Positions 9,109 to 43,987 of a stretch of DNA of 64,000 bases are shown here, piece by piece. The stretch is from a virus (Duplodnaviria > Caudoviricetes). Where the stretch lies: IMG/VR virus record IMGVR_UViG_3300033146_000601, positions 1,621 through 65,620 of that record, one strand, 5' to 3'. Position numbers and translations under genes: made by a program. The notes under the pieces were generated by a model that had not been told where the DNA came from, did no database searches, and saw only the letters and a program-made list of their open reading frames with translations. Every line of letters begins with the position of its first letter. The stretch's first letter is position 1.

Positions 9109-12100
9109 TTAATAATGTAGGCCCATACTGTTCATAAATGTCTTTAATACGGTTGATGTTGTTCCTTGTTTTATATTTTTTGGCATATTTGATTGGCCAG
9201 TAGTAGTTATATTATTAATGACCTCTCGTTTAGCATTATGATCATCCGCTCTCAAAGTATATAATTCATCAACAATATCTCCAGCATCAAATGTTAAAAA
9301 CGCATGCAAATCTAAATTACCAACAGCTTGACCCCCACCACGCGATTTACCTTTAACAGATTGGGAAGTTAGCATATTATATTTTCCAGTAGATCGAGCA
9401 GTTACATAAGATTTTGAAGTTTGTTCTAATGATTGCATATAACATACCCCTACCGGAACTTTTTGTTTAGTCCAAGTTTTCAATTTAGGAATATATACAT
9501 ATTCATCTAATTCTATTTTTAATATATTTGCAGCTTCTTTAATATCTTCAAAATTAATTGTTTTAAATGGTGGAACCAAAACATTCAACATAAAATCCGG
9601 ATCATCTATTAATTGTTTTCGAAATTTAACTTGTCCCATTTTATCTAAATATTGATTTATACTAGCGATCAATTCTTTTGTTTTTAATGCTTGATATACA
9701 TCAATTATTAAATTTATAATCCGTTCAGTTTGAACTGTTGTTAATTTAGCCATTTCTTTAATTTTTTTATTTAATATAAATATCACTTTGCCTAAATATA
9801 ATTCTTTAAGCATTGCTATGTTTTTTCTGCCAAACATTCCAACAGTACTAATGAACACATCAATTGGTAATTCACTTTTGCTATATGGAATATCTGGGGT
9901 TGGGATTATATAAGAAATAACACCTTTTGCTCCATATCGGGAAGCTAATTTATCTCCTAATTTTAAATTTTCTTTCTGTTTAATATAATAAACAATTTCC
10001 GCTCCAGTAAACTCCATACCACCTTTTAATTTATGCCCACCAATTTTTAAAAATTTTGTTGATATATTATCTAATGCTTTAATTTTATCATCTTTATTTT
10101 TATAAGATTTTTCCAATTTGGTAATTGTATTTTTTGTATCAACTGCTAAATCTTTATGAAAATTAATAATTTGACTATCAACCTTAGTTTTATTATTTAT
10201 AAATACTTTAACATCAACAATTTTTCCTTCATGACCCATTAATTTAATACTATTGTTACCTTGTTTATAATTAATAGTATATTCATCATCTGAATCTTCA
10301 TCAAACCCCATAATATCATATGTATTTAAATATTCATCTAAATTATCATTATATGTAAATTCAACTAATACATCTTGAGGTGTTATGTCTTTTTTATCAG
10401 TTACTAATTTTAATATTTTAGTTTCAGGTGGAATTACGATTTGAACTTGTTTAATAATATCTCGATGTAAATCTTCAGCCATCGTATCAGCAATACAATA
10501 TGCATCTTCATACACAGTTCCCATATATTGCATAATAGCCATTGTGCAATTCCTACCTGAACAATACATTCCATTTTTATTAAAATTTAAAGTCCAAGCA
10601 ATCATTTGCCCTTTTTTAACTTTTTCACCTTCTTTAATAGTATCCATATCTAATCCAATAAATGCACCCATATATGTTTTAGATAATCGTGGAATAATAT
10701 CAAATGTTTCTTCTGTATTATCCTTATATTTTATAGTCATAGTTTTATTAGGATCAACATTAATTACAACTCCATCTTGTTTAGATTTTTGAACAAATCG
10801 TTTAGATGATAATTCGGTTGTAATAAATTCGGCTCCAGTACCAACTAATGGGGGTTGATTGCCAACACTAGGAGTAGTTTGTTTCACATGTGTTGCGCCC
10901 ATAACTAATCGATCACTATCAACTTCATTAGCAAATGGAATCAATGCTTCGTTTAAAGCAACAGCTTCCCATCCAGACATATGTTTTGGATCATTAGTAC
11001 TATAACTTCCAAATTCATTAATAATAGATGGGGTCAATGTATGTGATGTAGTTAATCCAACATTACCAGATTCAGGAGTTGTATTTGCAGATATATTTCC
11101 AATATGACTTTTATGAATAGCTCTATGATTTGTTGTGAATGATTCTTTATTTGGTACTCCACCCGGTCCAGTTTTTATAACTTGGGATGCTAATGTTATG
11201 CCTTCAATTGGATTCGGCCCACTAGTATATTGCAATACACCCGGTTGACTATAAATATTTTTAATAATATGGTCAGAAATAATATTTATTTTTGCATCTT
11301 TTATTCCTAATGATATTTTTTTACGATATTCATTATGCGCCATAGTAACCTGTTTATACATAATATTCAACATCATTTCGGATAATCTTGATCTATAAAT
11401 ATTTAAATCAGCAATATCTTGAACGGGATCATTTAATAATTTATCTAAACATTGATTGGATAATAGATTTGATAAGTTAACTGGTAAATTTTCAAATTCT
11501 AAAAGTTCTTTTGTTACTGGATCTATTTCATAATCATTCAATAACTTTAAATTTCTTGTTGCGCTTTGACCATGTTGTTTATCGATAAGTGCATGAATTT
11601 CAGTAGGATCATCTAAATTATTTATTTTCTTTTTTATTTTAAATGCTAATAATCCATTGCATATAAATTCTTGTCTTGCAGTAGTTGGTGTAATAGATAA
11701 TAATTTATTATTTTTAATATTAATTAAATATTTAGATTCAACATCTGCATTTTTATCTATTATTTCATAATCTAATCCGAATTCATTTAATGCACTTAAT
11801 AATCCTTTTTGTTGCCACATATAAGTGATTAATGGTAATTTTAATCCACCAATATAAATTGCAATATATTGAATTGATTGTTTTGTTTTTCCTAATTTAT
11901 CATCAGGATTTATTATTTGAATCTGTTCAATAATTTTTTCATAAATGATTTCATTTCTAGTTTGTAATAATTTATCATTATCATTATTATATATGCAATT
12001 AGTTTCTTTATCAAATGTTATATTATCACCGACAGAATCAGTATACACTATATCACCAACAAAATATATTTTTGAATTGTCTTTAAAAACGAAATATTCT

Positions 12101-13683
12101 TCGGTTCGTTCTTTAATTAGTCCCGGATATTTTAATCCAATATATGATAATATCTCTTCGGTTTTTGATAAATCAAATTTAGTATTTTCTAAAGATAAAT
12201 GAATAATTGCATAATTGCTTAAAATACGAACTTTATTTTTTTCTGTTTTAGTTATTGGTTTCATAAATTGTTGGTTAGCCATAATATATTGAGAGCCATT
12301 CAATTTAACATATCGATCATTAACTATACCTGGAATATTTAATGTTATATCATATTCATCTGTATTATCTCCACTTGTATTTTGAAGAGTTATCGTATAT
12401 TGAATTAATCTATCTGCATTATTATCAATTATAGAATGCTTAATTTTTTTTACTTTAACTGCATGATCTGGAGTTTCTTCAAATGTTGAAAATAATTTTT
12501 TTATATTTTCATGTATTGTTTCTTCAAATTCGTATTTTTGTCTCCAAGCTCCAGTAGTATAATCAATATCAATTACTGATTTAGGATTAATAATGTTATT
12601 AGTTACAGATTCAGAAAAAACAAGTGGGGTTGTATAATTATTTACATCACTAATTTTATTTAATAATTTTTCAGGATTAGCTAAATAATCAGGATCAACA
12701 ACATCCGTATTAAATAATGTTTGATGTATTGATTTAAATACAATTTCAGATGCATCATATTCGGACATAGATTTAATTGAATTTAATTCAATATAATCTT
12801 TAATTGAATTTTTAGCATTAGCAATAATATCTGGGTTCGTTATATTATATTTTTTTAAAATTCCAGATAATACTTTAGTATTAACATTTACGACTACTGA
12901 ATCATCCGTATCATTTATTGAAATTAATAAATTCTTGTTTAAAGTGTTTTCTTTTTTGTCTATTTGTGAAATTTTTGATTCATCAGTATTTAATAATAAT
13001 GATGGAAGTTTTTTAATATTATTTGTTAATAATATATTATTATTATTTTCTTTTCCAAATACTGGAACTAACGAATTAGGAGTATGAACAAATCCATATG
13101 TTGTGTACAAATTTAATTTTAAAAATACATCTTTACTCAAATAAGTTTTAATATTATGAAACATATCACTAAACAAACCATTAGAATCTTTAATACAAAA
13201 CATTAAAATAATATTAATATCTTCATTTTTTAATTTGATTTTATCATATATTTTTGATAATTCATTAAAAATCATAGGTGTTGATTGATTCATATTAGAT
13301 TTTGATGTTATAAATTCATATGAATTTGAAAATAATGTCATATCATATATTAGATATTCATTTTTATTAATATCTATATTTCTCATAACATTTATTATTT
13401 TAAGTTTTTTAATACTATTTTGTTTTGTTAATTGTGTTTTAAGTTTAGTATTTTGTTGTTTCCCATTAAACATTTTATTACCAATAGTCATAGTTGTATT
13501 TGGAGAAATAATACCAAGACATTGACTTAAATATAAATTCAAATTTGGTAAAAACCCAACTAAATCAACATTTGTATCTGGAATCACTAGAATAATTGAA
13601 GGTTTATCAATTTGTATTTGTGTTTTTGTTATTGATGTATTTTTAAGTTTTGAATACGCTACTTCTTGTATTATTTGTTCCAT
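9109..13683 (-). CDS. RNA polymerase A, beta-like subunit (unsplit, ~390-aa N-terminal extension)
   Basis: YVKLNG, TPESGNVGL, LIPFANEVDSDRLVMG, YEDAY, GDKLASRYGAKGVIS, ARSTGKY...KGKSRGGGQAVG; likely start MEQIIQE (RBS GAGG). Confidence 0.93.
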   Translation of the reverse strand: MEQIIQEVAYSKLKNTSITKTQIQIDKPSIILVIPDTNVDLVGFLPNLNLYLSQCLGIISPNTTMTIGNKMFNGKQQNTKLKTQLTKQNSIKKLKIINVMRNIDINKNEYLIYDMTLFSNSYEFITSKSNMNQSTPMIFNELSKIYDKIKLKNEDINIILMFCIKDSNGLFSDMFHNIKTYLSKDVFLKLNLYTTYGFVHTPNSLVPVFGKENNNNILLTNNIKKLPSLLLNTDESKISQIDKKENTLNKNLLISINDTDDSVVVNVNTKVLSGILKKYNITNPDIIANAKNSIKDYIELNSIKSMSEYDASEIVFKSIHQTLFNTDVVDPDYLANPEKLLNKISDVNNYTTPLVFSESVTNNIINPKSVIDIDYTTGAWRQKYEFEETIHENIKKLFSTFEETPDHAVKVKKIKHSIIDNNADRLIQYTITLQNTSGDNTDEYDITLNIPGIVNDRYVKLNGSQYIMANQQFMKPITKTEKNKVRILSNYAIIHLSLENTKFDLSKTEEILSYIGLKYPGLIKERTEEYFVFKDNSKIYFVGDIVYTDSVGDNITFDKETNCIYNNDNDKLLQTRNEIIYEKIIEQIQIINPDDKLGKTKQSIQYIAIYIGGLKLPLITYMWQQKGLLSALNEFGLDYEIIDKNADVESKYLINIKNNKLLSITPTTARQEFICNGLLAFKIKKKINNLDDPTEIHALIDKQHGQSATRNLKLLNDYEIDPVTKELLEFENLPVNLSNLLSNQCLDKLLNDPVQDIADLNIYRSRLSEMMLNIMYKQVTMAHNEYRKKISLGIKDAKINIISDHIIKNIYSQPGVLQYTSGPNPIEGITLASQVIKTGPGGVPNKESFTTNHRAIHKSHIGNISANTTPESGNVGLTTSHTLTPSIINEFGSYSTNDPKHMSGWEAVALNEALIPFANEVDSDRLVMGATHVKQTTPSVGNQPPLVGTGAEFITTELSSKRFVQKSKQDGVVINVDPNKTMTIKYKDNTEETFDIIPRLSKTYMGAFIGLDMDTIKEGEKVKKGQMIAWTLNFNKNGMYCSGRNCTMAIMQYMGTVYEDAYCIADTMAEDLHRDIIKQVQIVIPPETKILKLVTDKKDITPQDVLVEFTYNDNLDEYLNTYDIMGFDEDSDDEYTINYKQGNNSIKLMGHEGKIVDVKVFINNKTKVDSQIINFHKDLAVDTKNTITKLEKSYKNKDDKIKALDNISTKFLKIGGHKLKGGMEFTGAEIVYYIKQKENLKLGDKLASRYGAKGVISYIIPTPDIPYSKSELPIDVFISTVGMFGRKNIAMLKELYLGKVIFILNKKIKEMAKLTTVQTERIINLIIDVYQALKTKELIASINQYLDKMGQVKFRKQLIDDPDFMLNVLVPPFKTINFEDIKEAANILKIELDEYVYIPKLKTWTKQKVPVGVCYMQSLEQTSKSYVTARSTGKYNMLTSQSVKGKSRGGGQAVGNLDLHAFLTFDAGDIVDELYTLRADDHNAKREVINNITTTGQSNMPKNIKQGTTSTVLKTFMNSMGLHY

Positions 13684-13690
13684 ATAACCC

Positions 13691-14212
13691 TCAACAAGTT
13701 TTAATATTCCATATATTTGGAAATAATTCAAAGAAATTTAATTCAAGCAATTCGTTTAATATATAAATATAAAAATACCATATTTTATCACCATATATAA
13801 TTGGAATAGCTAAATTAAACAAATTGATATTAGGATCAATTAAATAGTTTGTTAATAAAATTGTTTTTTGATATTTAAATTTTACAATTAAAAAAATTGT
13901 AGTCTGTTCAGTTGTTTGGGATTGTTCATCAATACATTTAGTTAACCATTTTTTTAATTTATATTGATTTATTAATGTAGGAATATTATCTTTATATCCG
14001 TGTTTACATTCAATTAATAATGGATACATTCCATTAAATTTTATTGGAAATTGTTTTATTGGAACGATATCTCCCATATAAGTCGTTTTGATTGCCCCAC
14101 TTGTTAAATGACGTCCTAGTACATTTTTATCATCAAAAATCCAAGTCCCCAATTGTTTTGCAGTAGTGTTTTCAAAAGCATTTCCTTTTGATTTTGATTT
14201 TCCAGGTTTCAT
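13691..14212 (-). CDS. Holliday junction resolvase (Hjc-like PD-(D/E)xK nuclease)
   Basis: SKSKGNAFE, TSGA, GDIV, LIECK motifs; RBS GGAG before MKPGK. Confidence 0.75.
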   Translation of the reverse strand: MKPGKSKSKGNAFENTTAKQLGTWIFDDKNVLGRHLTSGAIKTTYMGDIVPIKQFPIKFNGMYPLLIECKHGYKDNIPTLINQYKLKKWLTKCIDEQSQTTEQTTIFLIVKFKYQKTILLTNYLIDPNINLFNLAIPIIYGDKIWYFYIYILNELLELNFFELFPNIWNIKTC

Positions 14213-14225
14213 AAAAATTCTCCAA

Positions 14226-15992
14226 TCAATTATAATTACTATCTCTAACAATTATTTTGTCAATTGGTGATAATTTTTGTTGATCATTATCATCAGCATC
14301 GACTAAACTAGTTTTAATTGCTTTATTCAGATCTTGAAACGCTAATCGATTTATAAAAGTTCCAGTTACAAATGGTAATTGTTTGCATCCAATTATTTTA
14401 ACATTTTTATAATTTGATAATCTAGCCGGAGTATTTGGATTATCAGCATCTCTGAACATATTTCCTACCAATATTTCTAAATGAACTAAATCCATTTTAG
14501 GCATTTCATCAACCAATGCATTTAATAATAATTGTTCATCTTTAATATGTTTAACACTATAATTTAATAATTTATCAACAATTCCAGGATTTAATGTTGA
14601 TGTATATTTATCTCGGCTAAATATTAATTCACCTTTATCATATGTGAATGTTTTTAATTTTCCTTTACTTTCAAATAAATTTGGTTTCATAATGTAAATA
14701 TCAAAATTAAATGGAGTAGTAAACACTTGATTTTTAAAATGTATTGGAATTATTCCAGGAAATAACATTTTATCTGGTAAATCCGAATAATTATTTGTAT
14801 ATTCATTTAAATCAATTTGAATTTGGATATTATTTTTATTAGCATATATTTTATTTTTTTCAATAACTAAAATTTTGGATAATGATTCTTTATCAATAGA
14901 TGATTTATCAATTAAATCATTAAAATCTACATCAATAACTTCAAATCGTTCAGCTTTATGTCTTAATCCCATCATAATATTAACAGTTACCATATTTAAT
15001 GCACCAGCTGCTAAAATTCCAATATTATCTGTTTCAAGATTAGCACTAAGTTTTCCATAACAAATAGGACAAATATTATTATCTTTATTTTTACAATATA
15101 ATGGAGATCTTAATTTAATTTTTTTATTAATATAATTTTTAATATTTTTTTTAGTTAATAAAACTAAATCTTCCCCATCAACAATGTATCGATTAATTAA
15201 AGTTTTAGCATTTGTGGGATTAACAAATAAAATTAAATATCGTTTAGTATTACATCCTTTACTATTATTATCTATTTTGATATTAGAAGCGGCCATAGTT
15301 GCGGTTCGACTTAAATATCCTGGTACCCGAACGGCTTGGGTTTTTACATAAAATCCATTTCTTGCTTCATTAGCTGCATGATAATAATCTTCAATTGAAT
15401 AACCATCTCCGACTCCAGATGATACTCTGATACTGTTGCCATTTATATCTGAGCAATAACCTTTACTAACCATTAAAATTTCAAATGTCTTTTTAGACAT
15501 TTTGCCAGAAATTCCAGATTGTAAAGCGTCAACAAATGATGTATCATTTACTGATTCTTTCATTAATATGTCAACTAATTTTTGACCTTCTTCTTTAAAT
15601 TCTTCATCTGACATATTTTGTGCACGTTCCATAAATTCTTGTTTTAATAATTTAAAATCATCAGATGGAGTAACATTATCAATACTTATTGAATTTGGTG
15701 AAATCGTTGACAATTTAAATGCTTCTCGATTTAAGTTAGTTAAAATTTTGCTCATTTCTGCAGGTTCATGTTTTGTTGTAAGTTCTGCAACAATTTCATC
15801 TATTTTAGATTTATCAATTGGTTCATTTATTAATCTAAAATTATTTGGTAACATAATATTAAACCAAATTCTACCTAAACTCATTTTAATTGATATATTT
15901 TTAGTTTTTTTATTAGCATATCCATATTGAGTGGTTAAATTTACTTTATCATCTTTTAAAGTTTCATATATTTTTTCTAATGTCCATTCCAT
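14226..15992 (-). CDS. RNA polymerase A, beta' C-terminal half
   Basis: SLGRIWFN; bridge helix ARNGFYVKTQAVRVPGYLSR; LRSPLYC...ICPICYG zinc site; NIGILAA; VHLEILV. Confidence 0.88.
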   Translation of the reverse strand: MEWTLEKIYETLKDDKVNLTTQYGYANKKTKNISIKMSLGRIWFNIMLPNNFRLINEPIDKSKIDEIVAELTTKHEPAEMSKILTNLNREAFKLSTISPNSISIDNVTPSDDFKLLKQEFMERAQNMSDEEFKEEGQKLVDILMKESVNDTSFVDALQSGISGKMSKKTFEILMVSKGYCSDINGNSIRVSSGVGDGYSIEDYYHAANEARNGFYVKTQAVRVPGYLSRTATMAASNIKIDNNSKGCNTKRYLILFVNPTNAKTLINRYIVDGEDLVLLTKKNIKNYINKKIKLRSPLYCKNKDNNICPICYGKLSANLETDNIGILAAGALNMVTVNIMMGLRHKAERFEVIDVDFNDLIDKSSIDKESLSKILVIEKNKIYANKNNIQIQIDLNEYTNNYSDLPDKMLFPGIIPIHFKNQVFTTPFNFDIYIMKPNLFESKGKLKTFTYDKGELIFSRDKYTSTLNPGIVDKLLNYSVKHIKDEQLLLNALVDEMPKMDLVHLEILVGNMFRDADNPNTPARLSNYKNVKIIGCKQLPFVTGTFINRLAFQDLNKAIKTSLVDADDNDQQKLSPIDKIIVRDSNYN

Positions 15993-16010
15993 AAAAACTC
16001 CATATTATTA

Positions 16011-16045
16011 TTTTGACTGAATAAAAAATAATTATTCAGTCAAAA
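16011..16045. terminator. Intrinsic terminator
   Basis: TTTTGACTGAATAA/TTATTCAGTCAAAA inverted repeat. Confidence 0.7.
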
Positions 16046-16052
16046 GTTTTAA

Positions 16053-18455: not shown

Positions 18456-18477
18456 TTTTTTTTCCTTTTTAAAAAAT

Positions 18478-18512: not shown

Positions 18513-18514
18513 GA

Positions 18515-37284: not shown

Positions 37285-37298
37285 AATTAAATTCCTTA

Positions 37299-38498
37299 TT
37301 ATATATTAATAATTTGTTTTTCTGTACTGAATAACCCACAAGCATCCAATGTAGTATCGGGCACTAATGAAATTATTTCGCCAGGATCTTGATTCGATAT
37401 AGTTGTTGTGCATGCTTTTCCAAATGAAGATGGATGTATATTACTAACTTCTGACGGGGGTCTTGTCATATTAGGAGTAATTAAACTAATTCGAGACAAT
37501 AATAATGGATATAAATTAGTAGTGTCATATAAAAAATTACCACTTAATCCTGAATTTGCTCCATTAGAAAGTTTGGCTGATGTTAAAAAATATTTAATAA
37601 TATTTAACTCATTTATATTTAATCTACTTTTTATTCCGCCTTTCGATGTGTCGATTGACAATGAAGTAATTTTATTAATATATGGTTTTAGAATAAACTC
37701 CAAAAATGTAACACGCTTAAATGAAAAATCTATAAAACTGACCGGTCCAGATAATGATAATTCAAAACTTTTTAATATAATTTGTTTTAAATTAATTTCT
37801 GGCAAATCAGGATAACATTGCCGATATATATTCTTTGTATAATCATCCAAAATTATCAATTCTAATTTTTCAATTATAGTTTTCAAATCTGGATCTGTAT
37901 TAAATTTAATACTAAATAAATGTGTTAAATCATCAATTGTGTAAATTTCTTGATCTAATTTATTAAAAGCACAAAAATCATTATATAATTTTACCTCATT
38001 TTCATTTTCTTCATCTATAAATAATTGTAAAAATGCAGTTAATGGAATATTCTGTCTAGTAATTATAACTAATCCTTGTTCAAAATAATATGTAATACTA
38101 TTAAATAATGTTGAAATAATTAAACTATTTTTTTTAACTGTTATTGGATAATCAATCAAATATAACCCTGGAACATAATAATTTCCATTTAAATAAAAGT
38201 AATTATCTTCAATTAAAGTAGGAACAAATAATGATAAAAACTCATCTTCTTCATTTGTTATATTATTTTTAACTGTTACACTAATTTTTGAAAACTTTGA
38301 ATTATACATTCCTGTATAATTTATTTTATCTTCAATTTTTTTATCAATTATTGTTAAATAATTATTTCTTAGACTAGAAACAAAATTAACACCATATTCA
38401 ATATAATTTAATATTTGGAAATATTCATATTTTCTAAATGATATCGGGTTAATATATTTGTAAAAATCTGAGGTTTTTCTAGACTGTAATAAATTCAT
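37299..38498 (-). CDS. RNA polymerase B, beta N-terminal part
   Basis: VPTLIEDNYFYLNG, FKRV, IHPSSFGKAC...DPGEI (bacterial VHP.HYGR.CP.ETPEG equivalent). Confidence 0.8.
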   Translation of the reverse strand: MNLLQSRKTSDFYKYINPISFRKYEYFQILNYIEYGVNFVSSLRNNYLTIIDKKIEDKINYTGMYNSKFSKISVTVKNNITNEEDEFLSLFVPTLIEDNYFYLNGNYYVPGLYLIDYPITVKKNSLIISTLFNSITYYFEQGLVIITRQNIPLTAFLQLFIDEENENEVKLYNDFCAFNKLDQEIYTIDDLTHLFSIKFNTDPDLKTIIEKLELIILDDYTKNIYRQCYPDLPEINLKQIILKSFELSLSGPVSFIDFSFKRVTFLEFILKPYINKITSLSIDTSKGGIKSRLNINELNIIKYFLTSAKLSNGANSGLSGNFLYDTTNLYPLLLSRISLITPNMTRPPSEVSNIHPSSFGKACTTTISNQDPGEIISLVPDTTLDACGLFSTEKQIINI

Positions 38499-38547
38499 AA
38501 AAAATCCTTTTTTTAAAAAAATTAAAATAAATAAATATTATTATTTA

Positions 38548-38574
38548 AATTATTTCTATATGAAATAGTTAAAT
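38548..38574 (-). promoter_or_regulatory. Phage promoter
   Basis: ATTT-N11-ATAGAAATAA upstream of beta-N. Confidence 0.6.
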
Positions 38575-38579
38575 AATAG

Positions 38580-38613
38580 AAGCCCATACTAATATAATTA
38601 TTAGTATGGGCTT
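38580..38613. terminator. Intrinsic terminator
   Basis: AAGCCCATACTAAT/ATTAGTATGGGCTT stem. Confidence 0.8.
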
Positions 38614-38616
38614 TTT

Positions 38617-40569
38617 TTAGTCGTCTAGAAATTCAATAAATACTGAAGCAACCCGTTTGGTACCTCCACTATGGTTTTTAATATCAGGCATATGATATTC
38701 TCCAGTGTCCATTAACTGTTCAATTAAATCTGTTTTTTCACTTACATAATCTGATTTAACTGTTAAAAGTTCTTTAAGAGCTATATCGCAACCGCTAGTA
38801 GCGATGGATTCAGTTTCCATTTGTCCAACGGTTTGACCTCCTTTTTTAGCTCGTCCTTTATAAGGTTGCCCAGTAATAAATTTATATTTTCCTAATGCCC
38901 TAGAATGTATAATTTTATCGGCAATTTTATTTAATTTCATAATATATGTAGGCCCGCATAAAATATTTTTTAATGTGACATCTCCATTAATTGTGAAATT
39001 TAATTTAAAATCTAATTTGTCTTTCATATATAATAATAATTCTTTTTTTAATATTATATCTTCTCTTGGAGGAATAGATGCCTTCATAATATTTTTAATA
39101 TCAATTTCTTTAAAAGCTGGCGCTTCTATAAATAAATTAGAATCGTTAATATTTTTAATTAATTTTTGTTTTTCATCTTCATCAGTTTGAATAGTTTTGA
39201 TTAAATCTTTTACTTGATTATAATATTCTTCATCATTCAAATTATAAATAATATCATTATTTAATTTAGTCAAATATTGATCAATATTATCTGGATCATT
39301 TTTAATTTTAGATTCAATCGACATTACATTTTTACTAACAATACATTCACTAATTTGGCTAATATTCATTCTACTATATACACCAAATGGATTAAAAATT
39401 AAATCCAATGGCAATTTAGTATCTTTGGTCATAGGTCGCAATTCATCTGGTAAAATTAAAGATGTTACCCCTTTGCCTGCATATCTATTACATAACTTAT
39501 CACCGAATTGACATATATTATCATCAACCAATTCAATTTCTAATATATATAATGCATGTTTCATTGTTTCATTATTAGAAGTGATATCATTAGATTGATA
39601 TACTAATTGTTCTTTTGCAACTTTAATTGCCAATTGTTCAGTAAATTCAGTTTTAATATCATTAAATGTTGTGAATATATCTTGATCACAATAAGCATCA
39701 TATAATATTTGTAATATTTTTTCTAATTGAGGATCAATCAAATTAATTGTTTTATTCAATTTATGTATTTTGATATTATTAACAACTGCATTTGACAACT
39801 TAGTTTTTGTATCATCAATTGTATAAGATGTTAACATAGAACTATCTGATAAATTAATCAAATCAATAATATTCATATTTTTTACAATAGATAATTTACG
39901 TTTAATACTTTTTGAAGATAAATTATTAGCTTGATTTGGTTTAATTTGACTACATACGATTTTATTTTTAATTTTATCACCAATATTAGGAAAATATATT
40001 AATTCCGAATCAAATATTTTTCTTAACACTGTATGTTCAAAAATAGGAATTAATATGTTTTCTCGTAATTGAGTTTTAGCTTTATTACTAAATAATTCAC
40101 TTATAACTAATGCATCTTCATGATTATAACCGAAAAAATTAAAATATCCAGTCATAGTATTATATCCAAATGAGGGAACACCATTTTTAAAATCATTATA
40201 TGAAAATATAATATCATGTTTTTTAAAATGAGTATCCTTAGGCAAAGATGTTCTTAATTTAGATGTAAAAATTCCAATAGTTTGTTTAAATATTGGAATA
40301 TATCTAACATTCAATTTATCTAATTTTATATAATGAAATATAATAATATTATTATCATTATAGAGTACTACACCATCATCTTCAGCAATTTGAATTGAAC
40401 GGTGGGCAGTATTAGTTAAATTTCTATAATTATTTGAAATTACATATGGTATATCTGCATTTTTATGAACAAGAGCTTGACCTAATTGTTTAGTAGCCAT
40501 GCCAGATCTTGTTGCATCACAACTTCCAATAAATGGTAAACTATTTAAATTGATACTTGATATTCCCAA
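38617..40569 (-). CDS. RNA polymerase B, beta C-terminal part
   Basis: LPFIGSCDATRSGM, GYNHEDALVISE, GDKLCNRYAGKG, DLIFNPFGVYSRMNISQ, HSRALG...GRAKKGGQTVGQME, LKELLTVKSD. Confidence 0.93.
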   Translation of the reverse strand: MGISSINLNSLPFIGSCDATRSGMATKQLGQALVHKNADIPYVISNNYRNLTNTAHRSIQIAEDDGVVLYNDNNIIIFHYIKLDKLNVRYIPIFKQTIGIFTSKLRTSLPKDTHFKKHDIIFSYNDFKNGVPSFGYNTMTGYFNFFGYNHEDALVISELFSNKAKTQLRENILIPIFEHTVLRKIFDSELIYFPNIGDKIKNKIVCSQIKPNQANNLSSKSIKRKLSIVKNMNIIDLINLSDSSMLTSYTIDDTKTKLSNAVVNNIKIHKLNKTINLIDPQLEKILQILYDAYCDQDIFTTFNDIKTEFTEQLAIKVAKEQLVYQSNDITSNNETMKHALYILEIELVDDNICQFGDKLCNRYAGKGVTSLILPDELRPMTKDTKLPLDLIFNPFGVYSRMNISQISECIVSKNVMSIESKIKNDPDNIDQYLTKLNNDIIYNLNDEEYYNQVKDLIKTIQTDEDEKQKLIKNINDSNLFIEAPAFKEIDIKNIMKASIPPREDIILKKELLLYMKDKLDFKLNFTINGDVTLKNILCGPTYIMKLNKIADKIIHSRALGKYKFITGQPYKGRAKKGGQTVGQMETESIATSGCDIALKELLTVKSDYVSEKTDLIEQLMDTGEYHMPDIKNHSGGTKRVASVFIEFLDD

Positions 40570-40573
40570 ATTA

Positions 40574-40909
40574 TTAGTCCTTTTCTTCTAATTTAATTAG
40601 TTTTGAACAAATAATTTCTGGCAATTTTATAATTTTATTTTGAGAATCAACCACTTCATGGTAATGTAATTTACCAATAATATATATTTTAGTACCAATT
40701 GCTAAAGATAATGCAAAAATAGCATGTTTTTTCCACAATTTTAAATTATGATATTCAGTTTGGGTCACCATTTTATTATGTTTTTTACTAAAATAAGTTT
40801 CATTAGTCGCTATTCGACATTTAACACCAATTGGGTCATTGTTAATTTTCATAGGATCCAGAACAATATACCCAACTAAAATTACTTTATTTTCACAAGT
40901 GTAATCCAT
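40574..40909 (-). CDS. ssb: OB-fold single-stranded DNA-binding protein lacking the acidic tail
   Basis: NKVILVG...DP, IATNE, TEYHN..LW, GTKIYIIGKL. Confidence 0.8.
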   Translation of the reverse strand: MDYTCENKVILVGYIVLDPMKINNDPIGVKCRIATNETYFSKKHNKMVTQTEYHNLKLWKKHAIFALSLAIGTKIYIIGKLHYHEVVDSQNKIIKLPEIICSKLIKLEEKD

Positions 40910-40933
40910 AAAAAACCTTTTTAAGTTATATGA

Positions 40934-43900
40934 TTATAATTTATCTAACCAAATCTTTTCATATAATGTTAATTTTGTTCCAGTATTATCTGTTAAATAT
41001 GGTAATGATTTTATATTTGGTTGAAATAAACAACTTAATCTTGGACGTATATTATATGCCATATTAAGTTGTCCAGATTTATAAACTATTTTATTATTTT
41101 GATTATATCTCCAAAATACATTTGGGTCTTTATTAGTTAAAAACATATTAGCAAATATACATTCAACAAATGATGAAAATAATGTCCCAACTTCTAATAA
41201 ATATGACATAAGTTCTTCATAATATTCAGTCGGATGCTTGTTAATTATAGTTTGAGTTTTTAATATTTGTTTAATATGTACAAGAATAGCAATAACATCA
41301 TTATTTTCAACAGGATATTTAATTTCATCAAAAACAATTACATTATCATGGCATAACAAAAACCCTTCAATCCCATCAAAAATATTTACTGGATTACTAT
41401 CAAAATATAATTCACATTTACCATTAATGTTTTTAATATTTATTAAATGATCATGAATAAATTGTTTAACATTTTCATCAATATCTAAATTTGCTGCACC
41501 TGAAGTATGAAAAGTTCGCATAACTAATTGTGTTAATCGTTCTGATACTAATTGACCAGCCATAATCCCAACATAATTGGTTCGAAGCGATCTAGCACCA
41601 AAACATTTTTTACAAATTTGAAAATTTTGGGTTTGACATGTAATTGGTGATCTTATTGATATTTTTTTATTTATATATGTTTTGGCAGTATTAAAATCTA
41701 ATATTTTCCAATTACGATCATTTGAATAAATATCTCTATAATATTTACCAGTTAATGTTTTAGCATGTGTTTTACTAAACACAATAGTATCAATATGCAA
41801 ATCAGTTCCACAATCATTTTCAATAATTTCCAATGGGGATAATGCCATTGATAAAGTTCGTTGCATATATCCAGATTCAGGTGTTGATTTACTTTTATCA
41901 ACAACTCCTTTTCTAGCTCCCAAACTTGTTTCAAGAAAATCTGCTTGATTTAATCCTTTAATTAAATTTGATGTTATTGGTTTATTTGATACAATATTTT
42001 GTGCGTCGGCAATATATCCAATATTCATACATGTTCTAGCTAATTGAGATTTACTAAATCGTGATCCAGATTTAAATAATTTATATAAATCACAATCTTT
42101 ATTCATTTCTGTTAAACACTTATCAATTAATGCTTCATTAATATGTGTCCCAATATATGGATTATTTTTAGGTAAATTCATAAATAAATGTTCTATTTTA
42201 TCATTTAACATATTTATCATTTCATTAACATTAATTGATGGACAATGATCAGTACTACTGATAAAAAATAATATTTGTCTGTTTAAATTGTGTAAATTAT
42301 CATGAAATTTATCTTGATTGAATTCAAATATTATTTTACTAACTAATTCAGATTCAGATTTACCAATAAATTGATTAATTAATATTGAATCGAACCCAGC
42401 CCATTTATTAATCAAACACATCCCATATGAATATGTTTTATTAATAAAGTTAACTGGACAATCCAAATTATAATTCCAATAATCAAAATTTTCAGGTAAT
42501 AAGTCCAAAGATGTTAATTGAATTGGAACTTTATCATAATTAATATTAAATGAACTTATTATAAACATTCCATATAATGCTTCATGTCGAAGTGTAGCTA
42601 ACATTGTTTCATTAGAATCATATTTAAACTTATATTTCAAATATGATTTATCATGCATTTCTTTTAATGCTGATTGATCCGCAATTGCAAATAATGCTAA
42701 TGTATCCCCATCTAAATCAGCATTCATTGGAGCCAATGTTAATGGAGATATTCCAATTGTTAAATCATTTTTATCCTTATTAGGTAAAACTTGAACTGTT
42801 GGAATACTATGTGAATATAATGTAGGGGCTCTATTTAAAAACATCAATCGTTTTAATTCATATTTATCTTGACAAAACCACACCAAAAATTCTTGAAATA
42901 ATCTTTCATTTTCTTCATTTTTAATACCTTCTAATAAAATTTTATTAAAGCAATATGTATAATCATAATCTTTATATTTAGTTAACCAATACACAAAGTA
43001 TGGCCCCCATAATTCTTTTAATATATCATGAGGTGCCGTAATTTGATAACAGTTTAAACTTGGATCAATTTTAATAACTGATCTGGCTGAAAACTCTACT
43101 GATTTTCCTAAAATATTTTTCCTAATTATTCCAGGTTTGCCTGATAATAATTTATATACTTCTGCATAAATATTATTAATTTGTTCTTGATACGCACAAG
43201 ATTTAATATCATATTCAAAAAATTCGGATTCAACAATTGCCTGAGTTAATTGACCAGATTTAATCGTTATTCGAATTTTTTCAATAATTTGCGGTTCAAT
43301 TTCATGTAAATAATCTGCGAATGGTAAATTAATTTTATTACAATTTAATACTGATTTATAATATTTATTAATTATTGGAAATCGTTTTTTATTTTGATCA
43401 ATATCAATTGTAAACATTCGTGCATTTGGGGGTAATACTTTAAGTGATTTAGTAAAAATATTATCTGTAATTAATTCAGTAGCAATAGGGACATTTAAAT
43501 GTTTATGTAAAAATGTTAATCCTAAAAATAAAGTATATATTCCAGTAATTCTAAATGGGATTACTAAATATCCTTGTTCAGAATTTAATGTTTTTACAAT
43601 TTTAAGTTTAGTTTTATCATATTTTACAGCTAAATATCGTTTATTGATAATATTAACATCAGATTTTTTTGGGTCAATTATTAATTTGCATAATTGACCC
43701 AAATATTTAATAACCAATTTTTGTTTAGTTGTCTTAATATATGGAAATATAGTTTGAATTTCTCCAAATTGTGTAAACCTAAGGTCACTAGACCCACATA
43801 AAACATTACATTTTGGACAAATTTGGTTATCAAAATTAATACTATTATATTTTCCACATAAACATTGATGATCTCGTATTGGCCCAAAAATCACTTGTGA

Positions 43901-43987
43901 AAATAATCCATCTTGTGTTTCTCTATTAATTTGTGTTTTTCCTTGAAAATCTTTAGCATTGGTTACTAATCCACCAAGATGTGACAT
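40934..43987 (-). CDS. RNA polymerase B, beta' subunit (unsplit, compact)
   Basis: DGLFSQVIFGP..D..CLCGKY...CPKC, GKPGIIRKNILGKSVEFSARSVI, LNRAPTLY, NADLDGD, GARKGVVDK...TPESGYMQR, RSPITC...CKKCFG, TQLVMRTFH. Confidence 0.95.
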   Translation of the reverse strand: MSHLGGLVTNAKDFQGKTQINRETQDGLFSQVIFGPIRDHQCLCGKYNSINFDNQICPKCNVLCGSSDLRFTQFGEIQTIFPYIKTTKQKLVIKYLGQLCKLIIDPKKSDVNIINKRYLAVKYDKTKLKIVKTLNSEQGYLVIPFRITGIYTLFLGLTFLHKHLNVPIATELITDNIFTKSLKVLPPNARMFTIDIDQNKKRFPIINKYYKSVLNCNKINLPFADYLHEIEPQIIEKIRITIKSGQLTQAIVESEFFEYDIKSCAYQEQINNIYAEVYKLLSGKPGIIRKNILGKSVEFSARSVIKIDPSLNCYQITAPHDILKELWGPYFVYWLTKYKDYDYTYCFNKILLEGIKNEENERLFQEFLVWFCQDKYELKRLMFLNRAPTLYSHSIPTVQVLPNKDKNDLTIGISPLTLAPMNADLDGDTLALFAIADQSALKEMHDKSYLKYKFKYDSNETMLATLRHEALYGMFIISSFNINYDKVPIQLTSLDLLPENFDYWNYNLDCPVNFINKTYSYGMCLINKWAGFDSILINQFIGKSESELVSKIIFEFNQDKFHDNLHNLNRQILFFISSTDHCPSINVNEMINMLNDKIEHLFMNLPKNNPYIGTHINEALIDKCLTEMNKDCDLYKLFKSGSRFSKSQLARTCMNIGYIADAQNIVSNKPITSNLIKGLNQADFLETSLGARKGVVDKSKSTPESGYMQRTLSMALSPLEIIENDCGTDLHIDTIVFSKTHAKTLTGKYYRDIYSNDRNWKILDFNTAKTYINKKISIRSPITCQTQNFQICKKCFGARSLRTNYVGIMAGQLVSERLTQLVMRTFHTSGAANLDIDENVKQFIHDHLINIKNINGKCELYFDSNPVNIFDGIEGFLLCHDNVIVFDEIKYPVENNDVIAILVHIKQILKTQTIINKHPTEYYEELMSYLLEVGTLFSSFVECIFANMFLTNKDPNVFWRYNQNNKIVYKSGQLNMAYNIRPRLSCLFQPNIKSLPYLTDNTGTKLTLYEKIWLDKL

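What the first reader, a model, noticed from the sequence alone, without database searches (positions are those of the whole stretch)
9109..43987. Two multi-subunit RNA polymerases with reciprocal split architecture
Seen: RNAP-A is intact beta (9109-13683) plus beta'-N (22070-23362, GADFDGD) and beta'-C (14226-15992). RNAP-B is beta-N (37299-38498) plus beta-C (38617-40569) and intact beta' (40934-43987, NADLDGD). Established: phiKZ and AR9 enzymes have both subunits split in both polymerases. RNAP-B keeps the beta' Zn ribbon and a bacterial-like trigger loop (TQLVMRTFH). RNAP-A lacks that ribbon and has a divergent trigger loop and a long beta extension. No alpha or sigma gene is recognisable. 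Inference: an independently organised virion/non-virion pair. The pairing is inferred from gene proximity.
Basis: partly seen in the sequence, partly recalled or inferred. Interest (0 to 1): 0.85.

Follow-up and report, generated by a model that had tools for sequence, protein, structure and literature searches.

The report
Partly unsplit jumbo-phage RNA polymerase pair
This fragment of an uncultured giant phage encodes the two RNA polymerases typical of phiKZ/AR9-type phages, each in three pieces instead of four or five, a half-way stage that helps show how those fragmented enzymes arose.

Summary
A profile of its 4 orthologues matches the AR9 non-virion beta N-terminal chain (7s00_c, E 2e-10).

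Set A is the orthologue of the virion RNAP of phiKZ/SPN3US/AR9-type phages. Here beta is one 1524-aa protein. The middle and C-terminal beta' pieces (SPN3US gp42-like and gp244-like) are fused.

Set B is the counterpart of the non-virion RNAP. It shares the same beta break, but beta' is one 1017-aa protein.

The pair is therefore not independently organised. Its two breaks sit at canonical jumbo-phage split sites, and the other canonical breaks are missing.

Three related contigs (two of them 95-100% complete) keep the layout. In them B beta' is interrupted elsewhere, with homing endonucleases and other genes in the gaps. One of them also has group I introns in beta-C.

Other public contigs carry fully unsplit versions. 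Earlier notes of this scan flagged such unsplit pairs on other DNA, but none of the 8 notes shown (of 32 matching) describes this 3+3 pattern.

The papers I searched do not describe it. Virion packaging, assembly and activity are untested. Verdict: new variant of a known kind, moderate interest.

The parts
9109..13683 (-). Set A beta, one polypeptide (1524 aa from the ATG). It is the virion-RNAP-type beta with its C-terminal segment attached and an N-terminal extension of about 450-570 aa with no family match.
   Evidence: Pfam Rpb2_3 and Rpb2_6. PHROGs 14872 and 3148 (the latter is SPN3US gp241's family) plus phrog_3233 at aa 1360-1533. Orthologues of 1542 and 1548 aa in the relatives G002 and G001. 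In the virion-type beta clade at 98/95*. The first 450 aa have no Pfam or PHROG hit.
13691..14251 (-). 186-aa PD-(D/E)XK endonuclease ORF wedged between A beta'-C and A beta. It overlaps the end of beta'-C, and overlaps the beta ORF only if beta starts at the TTG at 13731 rather than the ATG at 13683. Possibly a free-standing homing endonuclease.
   Evidence: Pfam PDDEXK_15 at 2.2e-13; phrog_244 at 5.7e-11. The role is inferred.
14226..15992 (-). Set A beta' C-terminal part (588 aa). It joins the middle piece (bridge helix, second zinc site, divergent trigger loop) to the gp244-like C-terminal piece.
   Evidence: phrog_2962 at 2.9e-33. The last 224 aa match phrog_2926 over positions 10-239 of 241 (E 3.4e-5; G001 orthologue 3.1e-9). 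SPN3US gp244 is phrog_2926 at 1.2e-94. The best AR9 match is g264, annotated 'virion RNAP subunit'.
19756..21723 (-). SF2 (DEAD-type) helicase inside the roughly 6-kb block that separates the two A beta' genes. This is context, not a polymerase subunit.
   Evidence: Pfam DEAD at 6.3e-14. Iyer et al. 2021 (PMC7824862, passage read) report an SF2 helicase linked to RNAP genes in phiKZ-type phages. I did not test whether this is that helicase.
22070..23362 (-). Set A beta' N-terminal part (430 aa). It carries the catalytic GADFDGD motif and has no N-terminal zinc ribbon.
   Evidence: Pfam Rpb1_2. phrog_2986 at 2.3e-48, which is SPN3US gp240's family. AR9 g145 (virion) 8.8e-31 against g270 (non-virion) 1.8e-15. 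In the virion clade at 98/96*.
37299..38498 (-). Set B beta N-terminal part (399 aa). It ends just after the fork motif and is encoded downstream of the C-terminal part.
   Evidence: Profile match to AR9 non-virion beta-N chain 7s00_c at E 2e-10. Orthologues of 389-402 aa in 3 of 3 relatives. hhalign to A beta 719-867 at E 1.3e-4, probability 53%.
38552..38574 (-).
   Evidence: Function is not shown. The full motif with up to 2 mismatches is not enriched over shuffles (63 found, 54 expected).
38617..40569 (-). Set B beta C-terminal part (650 aa), with the catalytic double-psi barrel and the GDK...R..KG and GGQ motifs.
   Evidence: Pfam Rpb2_6 at 7.6e-32; phrog_3295. Near full-length alignment to SA1-type non-virion beta-C (residues 11-619), and alignments from residue 11 to 408-428 with AR9 gp089 and phiR1-37 g261. 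In a clade with other split-beta contigs at 100/99*, sister to non-virion beta-C at 83/57.
40574..40909 (-). 111-aa single-strand DNA-binding protein gene between B beta' and B beta-C (context).
   Evidence: Pfam SSB at 1.7e-10; phrog_44 at 2.4e-10.
40934..43987 (-). Set B beta', one polypeptide (1017 aa). It has the zinc ribbon, NADLDGD, bridge helix, a bacterial-like trigger loop and a C-terminal domain collinear with non-virion beta'-C.
   Evidence: Pfam Rpb1_2 and Rpb1_5. Six metagenomic relatives of 972-1036 aa cover 97-100% of it. hhalign to AR9 gp154 plus the phiR1-37 beta'-C: probability 99.5%, E 2e-22, residues 585-998 against 144-615 of 631. Sister to the non-virion beta'-N clade at 90/76.
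44007..44444 (-). 145-aa gene 19 nt upstream of B beta', conserved at that position in 4 of 4 genomes. Its N-terminal part has an HU/IHF-like fold. It is a candidate DNA-binding accessory factor (inferred).
   Evidence: Alignment A5. AlphaFold model with pLDDT about 70-84 for residues 1-80. Top Foldseek PDB hits are almost all HU/IHF, but weak (E 7e-3 to 0.1). No Pfam hit.
45012..45034 (-). Promoter-like motif (ATAGAAAT core) upstream of the 156-aa ORF that heads the gene string 156 aa, 145 aa, B beta', SSB, B beta-C.
   Evidence: Function is not shown.

Best explanation
The window comes from a low-GC, uncultured jumbo phage. Its lineage is close to, but outside, the known phiKZ/SPN3US/AR9/phiR1-37 assemblage. 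It encodes that assemblage's two multisubunit RNA polymerases in a less fragmented state.

**Set A** (beta 1524 aa, beta'-N 430 aa, beta'-C 588 aa) is the orthologue of the virion RNAP. By analogy it is made late, packaged, injected with the DNA, and transcribes early genes.

**Set B** (beta' 1017 aa, beta-N 399 aa, beta-C 650 aa) is the counterpart of the non-virion RNAP. By analogy it is made early and transcribes middle and late genes. It would work with a promoter-specificity factor that I could not identify.

Neither set has alpha, omega or sigma.

**Breaks.** Each enzyme has three polypeptides instead of five (virion) or four (non-virion).
- Present: the virion beta' break after the catalytic barrel, and the non-virion beta break after the fork. 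These are the canonical sites.
- Absent: the breaks between the virion beta and its C-terminal segment, between the virion beta' middle and C-terminal pieces, and within the non-virion beta'.

**Shown versus inferred.**
- Shown: homology, split positions, conservation in relatives, tree positions.
- Inferred: virion packaging, timing, assembly, activity, and that the unsplit state is ancestral.
For: **Set A is virion-type.**
- Its best PHROGs are the families of SPN3US gp240, gp241 and gp244. Thomas et al. name gp240, gp241 and gp42 predicted virion RNAP subunits, detected gp244 in SPN3US heads, and found gp240 and gp244 missing from gp241-mutant particles (PMC5105663, passages read).
- A beta'-N scores 8.8e-31 against AR9 g145 (virion) and 1.8e-15 against g270 (non-virion). 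For SA1 the pair is 2.2e-26 against 1.9e-17; for LPJP1 it is 2.2e-32 against 1.6e-7 (AR9 annotation).
- phiR1-37 g099 is annotated as a structural protein.
- Trees put A with virion-type beta at 98/97* and 98/95*, and with virion-type beta'-N at 100/99* and 98/96*.

**Set B is non-virion-type.**
- The beta-N profile matches AR9 chain 7s00_c at 2e-10, against 0.18 for bacterial beta.
- Beta-C aligns over nearly its full length with SA1-type non-virion beta-C, and from residue 11 to 408-428 with AR9 gp089 and phiR1-37 g261.
- Beta' hits AR9 g154 at 5e-18 and g270 at 3e-14, but virion-type pieces only at 5e-5 to 8e-4.
- hhalign runs to the C-terminal end of non-virion beta'-C at E 2e-22.
- B is sister to non-virion clades at 83/57 for beta-C and 90/76 for beta'-N.

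**Conservation.**
- Relatives G001 (95% complete) and G002 (100%) each have exactly two Rpb2_6 loci.
- They share the same A beta (1548 and 1542 aa), A beta'-C (594 and 599 aa open frames) and B beta-C then beta-N order.
- Identity to the window is about 31-48%.

**Catalytic motifs** are intact in both sets.

**No introns** are detected in the window's RNAP regions at E<=1.

**Direction of change.**
- Public contigs carry unsplit virion-type beta' (1000-1007 aa in 4 of 6 examined) followed by beta (1354-1367 aa in 5 of 6).
- These branch outside the window-plus-known-virion clade (98/96*).

**Promoters (weak hint).** ATAGAAAT motifs precede the B genes. None lies within 110 nt upstream of the A genes.
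Against: - No proteomic, expression or biochemical data exist for this phage. 'Virion' and 'non-virion' rest on orthology alone.
- Support for B as sister of the non-virion clade is only moderate (83/57, 90/76).
- In the first, smaller beta'-N tree B sat on the bacterial side (84/73). The AU test merely failed to reject a B-plus-non-virion clade (p 0.132).
- B subunits score better against bacterial and YerA41/Rhizobium-phage RNAPs than against AR9 or phiR1-37.
- No homologue of the fifth non-virion subunit (AR9 gp226) was found in 0 of 4 genomes (a search with no positive control).
- The unsplit virion-type class is not resolved next to set A in the beta tree.
- Trees are unrooted and contain long branches.
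- The contig is about 24% of a genome.
- The AlphaFold model of beta-N was unusable (pLDDT 48).
Confidence: 0.7

Rival explanations
1. Set B is not the orthologue of the jumbo-phage non-virion RNAP. It is a separately acquired bacterial-type or mReC-type polymerase that took over that role, and its beta break at the same linker is convergent.
For: B beta' and beta-C score better against bacterial, Rhizobium-phage RHph_Y65 and Carin-5 proteins than against AR9 or phiR1-37. The first beta'-N tree joined B to the bacterial side at 84/73. The B-plus-non-virion node is weak in the beta trees (61/55; 83/57).
Against: The beta-N profile matches AR9 non-virion beta-N at 2e-10 against 0.18 for bacterial beta. 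The split lies in the same linker. Beta' is collinear with non-virion beta'-C to its end. With more taxa, both trees put B beside the non-virion clade, and the mReC-typical class groups with bacteria instead at 98/93*. The AU test does not reject a B-plus-non-virion clade.
Confidence: 0.2
2. The whole-length A beta and B beta' are secondary re-fusions of genes that were already split in the common ancestor with phiKZ/AR9-type phages. On this reading the lineage is derived, not intermediate.
For: On the sampled trees, one fusion per subunit is about as parsimonious as one fission on the sister branch. JD-Fnp4 sits inside the virion clade with a 930-aa beta' spanning the N and middle pieces. That requires either a re-fusion or repeated fissions. 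Iyer et al. 2021 argue that split forms are ancestral (PMC7824862, passage read).
Against: Fully unsplit virion-type genes branch outside window A plus the known virion clade (98/96*). Bacterial and mReC-typical outgroups are unsplit. Unsplit proteins are collinear with the pieces, with no loss at the junctions. Fission is seen in progress in the relatives, with homing endonucleases and other genes in the breaks and group I introns in one contig's beta-C. In the window, the A beta' pieces keep the beta'-then-beta order, with a roughly 6-kb gene block between them.
Confidence: 0.2
3. One of the two sets is a decaying or non-functional copy, or the arrangement is an assembly chimera of two phages.
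For: No expression or activity data exist. The contig is a metagenomic fragment.
Against: All six ORFs are intact, with catalytic motifs. Orthologues at 31-48% identity keep length and order in three independent contigs, one of which has terminal repeats and is rated 100% complete. Base composition is even across the window, with GC 0.23-0.27 from 4 kb onward.
Confidence: 0.03

Closest known systems
Virion RNAP of phiKZ-like and SPN3US-like phages (SPN3US gp240, gp42, gp244, gp241, gp218)
   Same: Set A matches the same protein families: phrog_2986, 2962, 2926, 3148 and 14872, and 3233. It has the same beta' break after the catalytic barrel. It lacks the beta' zinc ribbon and has no alpha or sigma.
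   Different: Three polypeptides instead of five. Beta carries its C-terminal segment. The gp42-like and gp244-like beta' pieces are one protein. Sequences are much closer to Pfam RNAP models (Rpb2_6 at 103 bits against 27.8 for phiKZ). Packaging is not shown here.
Non-virion RNAP of AR9/PBS2 (gp270, gp154, gp105, gp089, gp226; PDB 7s00) and of phiKZ (gp55, gp74, gp123, gp71-73, gp68; the phiKZ gene numbers are recalled, not from a call)
   Same: Set B has beta in two pieces broken in the same linker. Beta-N is recognisable only through the AR9 chain. Beta' is collinear with gp154 to its end. It has no alpha, omega or sigma.
   Different: Beta' is one 1017-aa protein and keeps a bacterial-like zinc ribbon and trigger loop. 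No gp226 or gp68 homologue was found. The beta genes are adjacent and in C-then-N order.
AR9-like and phiR1-37-like phages (Staphylococcus SA1 and S6, Listeria LPJP1, Yersinia phiR1-37)
   Same: These are the best cultured-phage matches for every set A gene. In SA1 the virion-type beta (about 1400 aa) lies next to a beta' middle-piece gene.
   Different: Their virion-type beta stops inside Rpb2_6, at about profile position 276-285 of 373, with a separate C-terminal piece. Identity to the window is only 22-27% in tblastn.
mReC, multi-subunit-RNAP-encoding Caudovirales (Weinheimer & Aylward 2020, PMC7481178), with cultured look-alikes YerA41, Carin-5 and Rhizobium RHph_Y65
   Same: These are phage-encoded, bacterial-like beta' and beta of moderate divergence. 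They are the top phage-collection hits of B beta'. Some large contigs of this kind carry a second, virion-type unsplit pair.
   Different: In the 8 of 8 loci of this class that I examined, both subunits are whole and adjacent. The class groups with bacteria, apart from set B (98/93*). The paper reports a T4-type capsid (PF07068). That family gave no match in the window contig or its 3 relatives, but the search had no positive control. In the passages I read, the paper mentions no virion/non-virion pair.
Cyanobacterial split beta' (rpoC1/rpoC2)
   Same: The review PMC7598289 (passage read) places the jumbo-phage beta' break at the cyanobacterial site, after the catalytic barrel. Set A beta' is broken there.
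   Different: Set B beta' is not broken there. In relatives it is broken before the barrel instead. This argues against inheritance of that break from a cyanobacterial donor for the non-virion enzyme.
Fusobacterium phage JD-Fnp4 (ON464764) genes 5 and 84
   Same: A deposited phage genome with a long virion-type beta (1484 aa) and a 930-aa virion-type beta' that spans the N and middle pieces. A reduced number of pieces is therefore not unique to the window.
   Different: The pattern differs: its beta' is unsplit at the site where the window's is split. The alignment to the window's beta stops near residue 1317, about 45 nt before the end of the JD-Fnp4 gene, so its beta lacks the C-terminal segment. 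Both genes are annotated 'subunit alpha'. It is a very long branch in the trees.

Membership tests
Jumbo-phage virion RNAP (phiKZ/SPN3US/AR9 type) | Beta'-N, beta' middle piece and beta belong to the virion-type protein families | tested here: met
   phrog_2986, 2962, 3148 and 14872 are the best hits. SPN3US gp240 and gp241 fall in 2986 and 3148. Virion-type hits beat non-virion hits by 9 to 25 orders of magnitude in 3 of 3 genomes that have both.
Jumbo-phage virion RNAP (phiKZ/SPN3US/AR9 type) | A gp244-like C-terminal beta' segment is present | tested here: met
   The last 224 aa of A beta'-C match phrog_2926 over nearly the whole profile (3.4e-5; G001 orthologue 3.1e-9). gp244 is phrog_2926. 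Here the segment is fused, not free.
Jumbo-phage virion RNAP (phiKZ/SPN3US/AR9 type) | Core made of at least five polypeptides (beta' in three, beta in two) | tested here: not met
   Three ORFs cover the same regions. The same holds in G002; G001 has an extra interruption in beta'-N.
Jumbo-phage virion RNAP (phiKZ/SPN3US/AR9 type) | Falls inside or beside the virion-type clade in trees | tested here: met
   Beta at 98/97* and 98/95*. Beta'-N at 100/99* and 98/96*. In each case it is sister to the cultured-phage virion-type sequences.
Jumbo-phage virion RNAP (phiKZ/SPN3US/AR9 type) | Subunits physically present in the virion and injected | not testable with these tools
   Needs a cultured phage and mass spectrometry.
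Jumbo-phage non-virion RNAP (AR9/phiKZ type) | Beta in two polypeptides, broken between the fork and the catalytic barrel | tested here: met
   Beta-N ends, and beta-C begins, within about 15-30 residues of the AR9 gp105 and gp089 ends.
Jumbo-phage non-virion RNAP (AR9/phiKZ type) | Beta' in two polypeptides, broken after the catalytic barrel | tested here: not met
   A single 1017-aa ORF. Six relatives of 972-1036 aa cover 97-100% of it.
Jumbo-phage non-virion RNAP (AR9/phiKZ type) | Fifth subunit (gp68/gp226 family) for promoter recognition | tested here: inconclusive
   AR9 gp226 gave no match in 0 of 4 genomes at E<=1. The family is very divergent and the search had no positive control.
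Jumbo-phage non-virion RNAP (AR9/phiKZ type) | Groups with non-virion subunits in trees | tested here: inconclusive
   Sister at 61/55, 83/57 and 90/76, but on the bacterial side at 84/73. AU test p 0.132.
Jumbo-phage non-virion RNAP (AR9/phiKZ type) | Absent from virions; genes expressed early | not testable with these tools
   The only hint is that ATAGAAAT motifs precede the B genes and not the A genes.
mReC phage RNAP (Weinheimer & Aylward 2020) | Whole beta' and whole beta as neighbouring genes | tested here: not met
   Each set in the window has one broken subunit. The mReC-typical loci have both whole in 8 of 8 examined.
mReC phage RNAP (Weinheimer & Aylward 2020) | RNAP sequences cluster with the mReC clade | tested here: not met
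   The mReC-typical class groups with YerA41, RHph_Y65 and bacteria at 98/93*, apart from both A and B.
mReC phage RNAP (Weinheimer & Aylward 2020) | T4-type major capsid protein (PF07068) | tested here: inconclusive
   No match in 0 of 4 records, but nothing matched in the control genomes either.

The most novel reading that the evidence does not exclude
This lineage preserves an early stage of a stepwise break-up of jumbo-phage RNA polymerase genes.
- Both the virion and the non-virion enzymes descend from ordinary two-gene (beta' then beta) polymerases that still exist unsplit in other uncultured giant phages.
- The first two fissions were virion beta' after the catalytic barrel and non-virion beta after the fork. 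They happened before this lineage parted from the phiKZ/AR9 assemblage.
- The remaining breaks came later, driven by insertion of homing endonucleases, introns and gene cassettes.

If so, the split architecture is derived. It would be neither a pre-LUCA relic nor a cyanobacterial inheritance. The fused middle-plus-C-terminal beta' would then independently confirm that SPN3US gp244 is the missing end of the virion beta'.
Probability: 0.45. Interest if true: 0.7.

Novelty: new variant of a known kind. Interest (0 to 1): 0.55.

Why it matters
- **An open question becomes testable.** The 2026 review states that the origin of the two jumbo-phage RNAPs is unknown: duplication or two acquisitions (PMC13282480, passage read). 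Iyer et al. 2021 argue that the split form is ancestral (PMC7824862). Sokolova et al. 2020 raise a cyanobacterial origin of the beta' break (PMC7598289). A lineage with only two of the canonical breaks, shorter branches and relatives caught with mobile elements in further breaks gives concrete intermediate states to place on a tree.
- **Experimental use.** Three-gene enzymes that are closer to bacterial RNAP could be easier to express and solve than the five- and four-piece enzymes. The 2020 review (PMC7598289, passage read) says no virion RNAP had been purified at that date.
- **A natural gene fusion as evidence.** The fusion of the gp42-like and gp244-like pieces supports an assignment that rested on weak profile matches (E 0.05 in PMC5105663).

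Tried and rejected
**Searches and models that led nowhere**
- Single-sequence searches for close relatives in the viral contig collection found nothing. An alignment of metagenomic homologues was needed.
- Beta-N gave nothing as a single sequence against PDB or the phage collection.
- The AlphaFold model of beta-N from a 4-row alignment was unusable (pLDDT 48), so I ran no fold search on it.

**Ideas I dropped**
- I first took phiR1-37 g099 and the roughly 1400-aa proteins of SA1 and LPJP1 for intact beta. PHROG and Pfam coordinates show they stop inside Rpb2_6 and lack the C-terminal segment.
- 'Acinetobacter phage MD-2021a' and some 'Staphylococcus' and 'Salmonella' records in the phage collection are bacterial rpoB/rpoC. 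I used them only as bacterial outgroups.
- I considered a giant intron or trans-splicing joining the A beta' halves or the B beta halves. Rfam at E<=1 gave only chance-level hits in 13500-23500 and 37000-45500. The pieces have their own starts and ribosome-binding-like sequences.

**Unresolved or weak**
- The break at about aa 377 of B beta' in relatives has no Rfam intron signal. In G003 it holds three tightly packed genes. I read it as a true gene split, but I cannot exclude an unrecognised intron.
- The gp226 search was empty.
- PF07068 was empty, without a control.
- The promoter motif with up to 2 mismatches is not enriched (63 found, 54 +/- 7.5 expected; 17 of 100 shuffles reach 63). The promoter argument is therefore weak.

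**Not run**
- No complex prediction. The sets exceed the size limit, halves of split genes tend to pass by likeness to solved structures, and one job cannot compare cognate with swapped sets.
- No search of protein representatives, sequencing-run or read-laying job.
The mReC paper's supplementary datasets might show whether contigs with two RNAPs were noticed.

**Rows left out of the trees**
- AR9 virion pieces (intron-split).
- G001 A beta'-N and all interrupted B beta' genes of G001-G003.
- phiKZ non-virion pieces (no match found).
- In the second beta'-N tree also JD-Fnp4's 482-aa protein, Acinetobacter, Psychrilyobacter, P0004, P0011 and P0013.
- Only 18 of the 64 loci L012-L075 were classified by ORF.

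Full report
**Setting**

The window is almost all of a 65.6-kb viral metagenome contig rated about 24% complete. GC is 23-27% after the first 4 kb. Almost all genes lie on the minus strand.

**Are they RNAP subunits?**

- Pfam finds RNAP domains in four of the six: A beta, A beta'-N, B beta-C and B beta'.
- PHROGs adds A beta'-C, through phrog_2962 at 2.9e-33.
- The 399-aa "beta-N" of set B has no Pfam, PHROG, phage-tblastn or single-sequence PDB match.
- I collected its orthologues from three related contigs. The four-row profile matches the N-terminal beta chain of the AR9 non-virion RNAP (7s00_c) at E 2e-10, over profile 69-386 and chain 78-467 of 496. Bacterial beta reaches only E 0.18, at the fork motif.
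- An AlphaFold model of beta-N was too poor to use (pLDDT 48).
So are the beta lysine and GGQ motifs, bridge helices and second zinc sites in both sets.
- B beta' has the four N-terminal cysteines, invariant in 8 of 8 relatives. A beta'-N has none.
- Sigma70_r2 and the alpha N-terminal family are absent from the contig and from two near-complete relatives, 0 of 3, with positive controls.

**Which known enzymes do they correspond to?**

*Set A is virion-type.*
- A beta'-N matches AR9 g145 at 8.8e-31 and g270 at 1.8e-15. The AR9 record annotates g145 as virion RNAP beta' N-terminus and g270 as non-virion.
- The same asymmetry holds in SA1 (2.2e-26 against 1.9e-17) and LPJP1 (2.2e-32 against 1.6e-7).
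- The best AR9 match of A beta'-C is g264, annotated "virion RNAP subunit".
- The best cultured-phage match of A beta is phiR1-37 g099, annotated as a structural protein.
- SPN3US gp240, gp241 and gp244 fall in phrog_2986, 3148 and 2926, which are among set A's PHROG matches (2986 is A beta'-N's best; 3148 is A beta's second-best). Thomas et al. name gp240, gp241 and gp42 predicted virion RNAP subunits, detected gp244 in SPN3US heads, and found gp240 and gp244 missing from gp241-mutant particles (PMC5105663, passages read).

*Set B is non-virion-type among jumbo phages.*
- B beta' hits AR9 g154 (5e-18) and g270 (3e-14). Virion-type pieces reach only 5e-5 to 8e-4.
- B beta-C aligns over residues 11-619 with the SA1-type non-virion beta-C, and from residue 11 to 408-428 with AR9 gp089 and phiR1-37 g261.
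- A profile of B beta' aligns with AR9 gp154 plus its phiR1-37 homologue at 99.5% probability and E 2e-22. The alignment runs to within 16-19 residues of both C-termini.

**Where are the breaks?**

The reviews give five polypeptides for the virion core (beta' in three, beta in two) and four for the non-virion core (PMC7598289 and PMC13282480, passages read). Iyer et al. count the virion beta as three (PMC7824862).

*Set A.*
- The beta' break coincides with the virion-type break. A beta'-N aligns end to end with the LPJP1 virion-type piece (1-429 against 1-503).
- The last 224 aa of A beta'-C are a gp244-like module: phrog_2926 positions 10-239 of 241, at 3.4e-5, and 3.1e-9 for the G001 orthologue.
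- A beta continues about 200 aa beyond the end of the roughly 1400-aa virion-type beta proteins. That stretch matches the separate 225-aa family phrog_3233. Pfam Rpb2_6 spans the junction.
- A beta also has an N-terminal stretch of about 450-570 aa with no match to any family.

*Set B.*
- Beta-N ends and beta-C begins in the same linker as AR9 gp105 and gp089.
- Beta' runs uninterrupted through the canonical break site just after NADLDGD.

No intron is detectable in either region of the window. The window therefore has 3+3 polypeptides, with two of the canonical breaks and none of the others.

**Relatives**

- Homologues of B beta' in the large protein collection include six proteins of 972-1036 aa at 33-63% identity, plus two shorter ones on short contigs. 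That search cannot see split forms.
- Three viral contigs are related at roughly 31-48% identity: G001 (286 kb, 95% complete), G002 (315 kb, terminal repeats, 100%) and G003 (109 kb).
- G001 and G002 each have exactly two Rpb2_6 loci, one in a 1545-1555-aa frame and one in a 653-657-aa frame.
- Both have A beta'-C in a 594-599-aa frame lying just upstream of A beta. All three contigs have B beta-C followed by B beta-N.
- The odd C-before-N order is thus conserved.
- B beta' is interrupted in 3 of 3, near residue 377 and before the catalytic barrel.
  - In G003 that gap holds three tightly packed genes, one with a NADAR domain. Further gaps lie at residue 694 (with a LAGLIDADG endonuclease) and inside the trigger loop.
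  - In G002 an extra gap holds an HNH endonuclease.
  -.
- G003's beta-C has two complete and one ORF-bearing group I intron.
- G001's A beta'-N is interrupted at residue 338.
- The "reciprocal" look of the window is therefore one state of a lineage in which RNAP genes are being interrupted repeatedly.

**Wider comparison**

I classified 18 of the 64 more distant loci by ORF. Three classes appeared.

| Class | Loci examined | Beta' | Beta |
|---|---|---|---|
| Virion-type | 6 | One ORF of 1000-1007 aa in 4 of 6; one ORF of 1415 aa in L043; two ORFs of 780 + 226 aa in L027 | 1354-1367 aa in 5 of 6; 1532 aa in L043 |
| B-like | 4 | One ORF in 2 of 4 | Two ORFs in 4 of 4 (N 390-396 aa, C 657-801 aa, N before C) |
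| mReC-typical | 8 | Whole in 8 of 8 | Whole in 8 of 8 |

- In the four virion-type loci with a 1000-1007-aa beta', that single ORF covers both A pieces, including the gp244-like end.
- Two large contigs carry both a virion-type and an mReC-typical pair.
- Earlier notes of this scan report several such doubly unsplit phages on other DNA. I confirmed only that such contigs exist.

**Trees**

*Beta C-region, 33 rows.*
- Window A plus G001/G002 is sister to cultured virion-type beta (98/95*).
- Window B plus G001/G002 plus the B-like class form a clade (100/99*). It is sister to non-virion beta-C (83/57).

*Beta'-N, 33 rows.*
- The unsplit virion-type class branches first, then window A, then the cultured virion-type sequences (98/96* and 98/96*).
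- The non-virion clade is sister to B-like plus window B (90/76).
- The mReC-typical class groups with YerA41, Carin-5, RHph_Y65 and bacteria (98/93*).

*Caveats.*
- A smaller beta'-N tree had put B on the bacterial side (84/73).
- The AU test did not reject a B-plus-non-virion clade (p 0.132).
- Trees are unrooted and hold long branches.

**Reading**

The best-supported account is that these are the virion and non-virion polymerases of a lineage beside the phiKZ/AR9 assemblage, in a less fragmented form. The two breaks present are shared with that assemblage. The unsplit subunits most simply reflect an ancestral state that fully unsplit relatives also retain. Re-fusion is the main rival for the direction of change. 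An independent origin of set B is the main rival for its identity.

Function is inferred from orthology only. That covers packaging of A, early synthesis of B, the division of labour and the missing promoter factor. AR9 gp226 has no detectable homologue.

One weak hint fits the AR9/phiKZ logic of early non-virion genes. ATAGAAAT promoter-like motifs precede the B gene string and beta-N, but none lies within 110 nt upstream of the A genes.

**Literature**

I read the following:
- Passages of PMC7598289, PMC7824862, PMC13282480, PMC5449584, PMC5105663 and PMC7481178.
- The listings of three searches.

None describes a jumbo-phage pair with whole virion beta and whole non-virion beta'. In the passages seen, the mReC paper does not mention virion or non-virion enzymes; the words "virion" and "phiKZ" do not occur in its main text. 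Its supplements were not available. Deposited genomes already contain one exception to the usual split pattern: JD-Fnp4 gene 84, annotated "subunit alpha".

**Verdict**

- It is a new variant of a known kind.
- Interest is moderate. The pattern gives testable intermediate states for an open evolutionary question, and possibly more tractable enzymes.

Noticed in passing
window 44007-44444 (-); L011 9519-9968, L009 9527-9985, L010 9526-9987: A 145-153-aa gene sits directly upstream of the B beta' gene in 4 of 4 genomes (33-40% identity). The AlphaFold model of its first 80 residues (pLDDT about 70-84) finds almost only HU/IHF proteins in PDB, weakly (E 7e-3 to 0.1). It has no Pfam hit. It could be a phage histone-like protein or transcription factor tied to the non-virion polymerase.
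   Followed up: partly
window 13691-14251 (-): A PD-(D/E)XK endonuclease ORF (Pfam PDDEXK_15 at 2.2e-13) is wedged between A beta'-C and A beta. It overlaps the end of beta'-C, and the beta ORF only if beta starts at the TTG at 13731. It may be a free-standing homing endonuclease of the kind that splits genes.
   Followed up: no
L011 19777-23471 (= L091 2391-6085), 13327-13914 and 14300-14517; L010 10897-11829: In relatives the B-type RNAP genes are full of mobile elements. G003's beta-C has two complete group I introns and a third that carries an HNH endonuclease ORF. G003's beta' has a LAGLIDADG endonuclease ORF in one gap. G003 also has a gap of about 217 nt exactly inside the trigger loop, with no Rfam match. 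G002's beta' has an HNH endonuclease in one gap.
   Followed up: partly
L011 11138-12351: The break at about residue 377 of B beta' in G003 holds three tightly packed genes, one of them a NADAR-domain protein (Pfam 1.5e-31). The same break position holds different contents in G001 and G002.
   Followed up: partly
window 37299-40569 compared with L012, L013, L052, L062: In the window lineage beta-C is encoded before beta-N (4 of 4 genomes). In the more distant B-like contigs beta-N comes first (4 of 4), with 0.5-3.4 kb between the two genes.
   Followed up: partly
ON464764 (JD-Fnp4) genes 5 and 84; L006, L141: Fusobacterium phage JD-Fnp4 has a 1484-aa virion-type beta and a 930-aa virion-type beta' spanning the N and middle pieces. 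Both are annotated 'RNA polymerase subunit alpha'.
   Followed up: partly
phage collection records CAKLQH020000005.1, OR844998.1, AFYI01000006.1: Some records in the phage collection are bacterial chromosome pieces. One example carries rplA-rplJ-rplL-rpoB-rpoC under the name 'Acinetobacter phage MD-2021a'. They inflate phage hits for RNAP queries.
   Followed up: yes
protein P0009: A 972-aa protein 33% identical to B beta' is labelled as coming from a 'Candidatus Anstonellales archaeon' metagenome bin, on a 5.9-kb contig. It is probably a phage contig binned with an archaeon.
   Followed up: no
window 16053-18455, 18877-19413, 19756-21723: The block that separates the two A beta' genes holds an 800-aa ribonucleotide-reductase-like ORF ending in a Cys-rich motif, a dUTPase-like ORF and an SF2 helicase. 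Only the helicase was scanned (DEAD, 6.3e-14). The other two names come from reading the translations.
   Followed up: no
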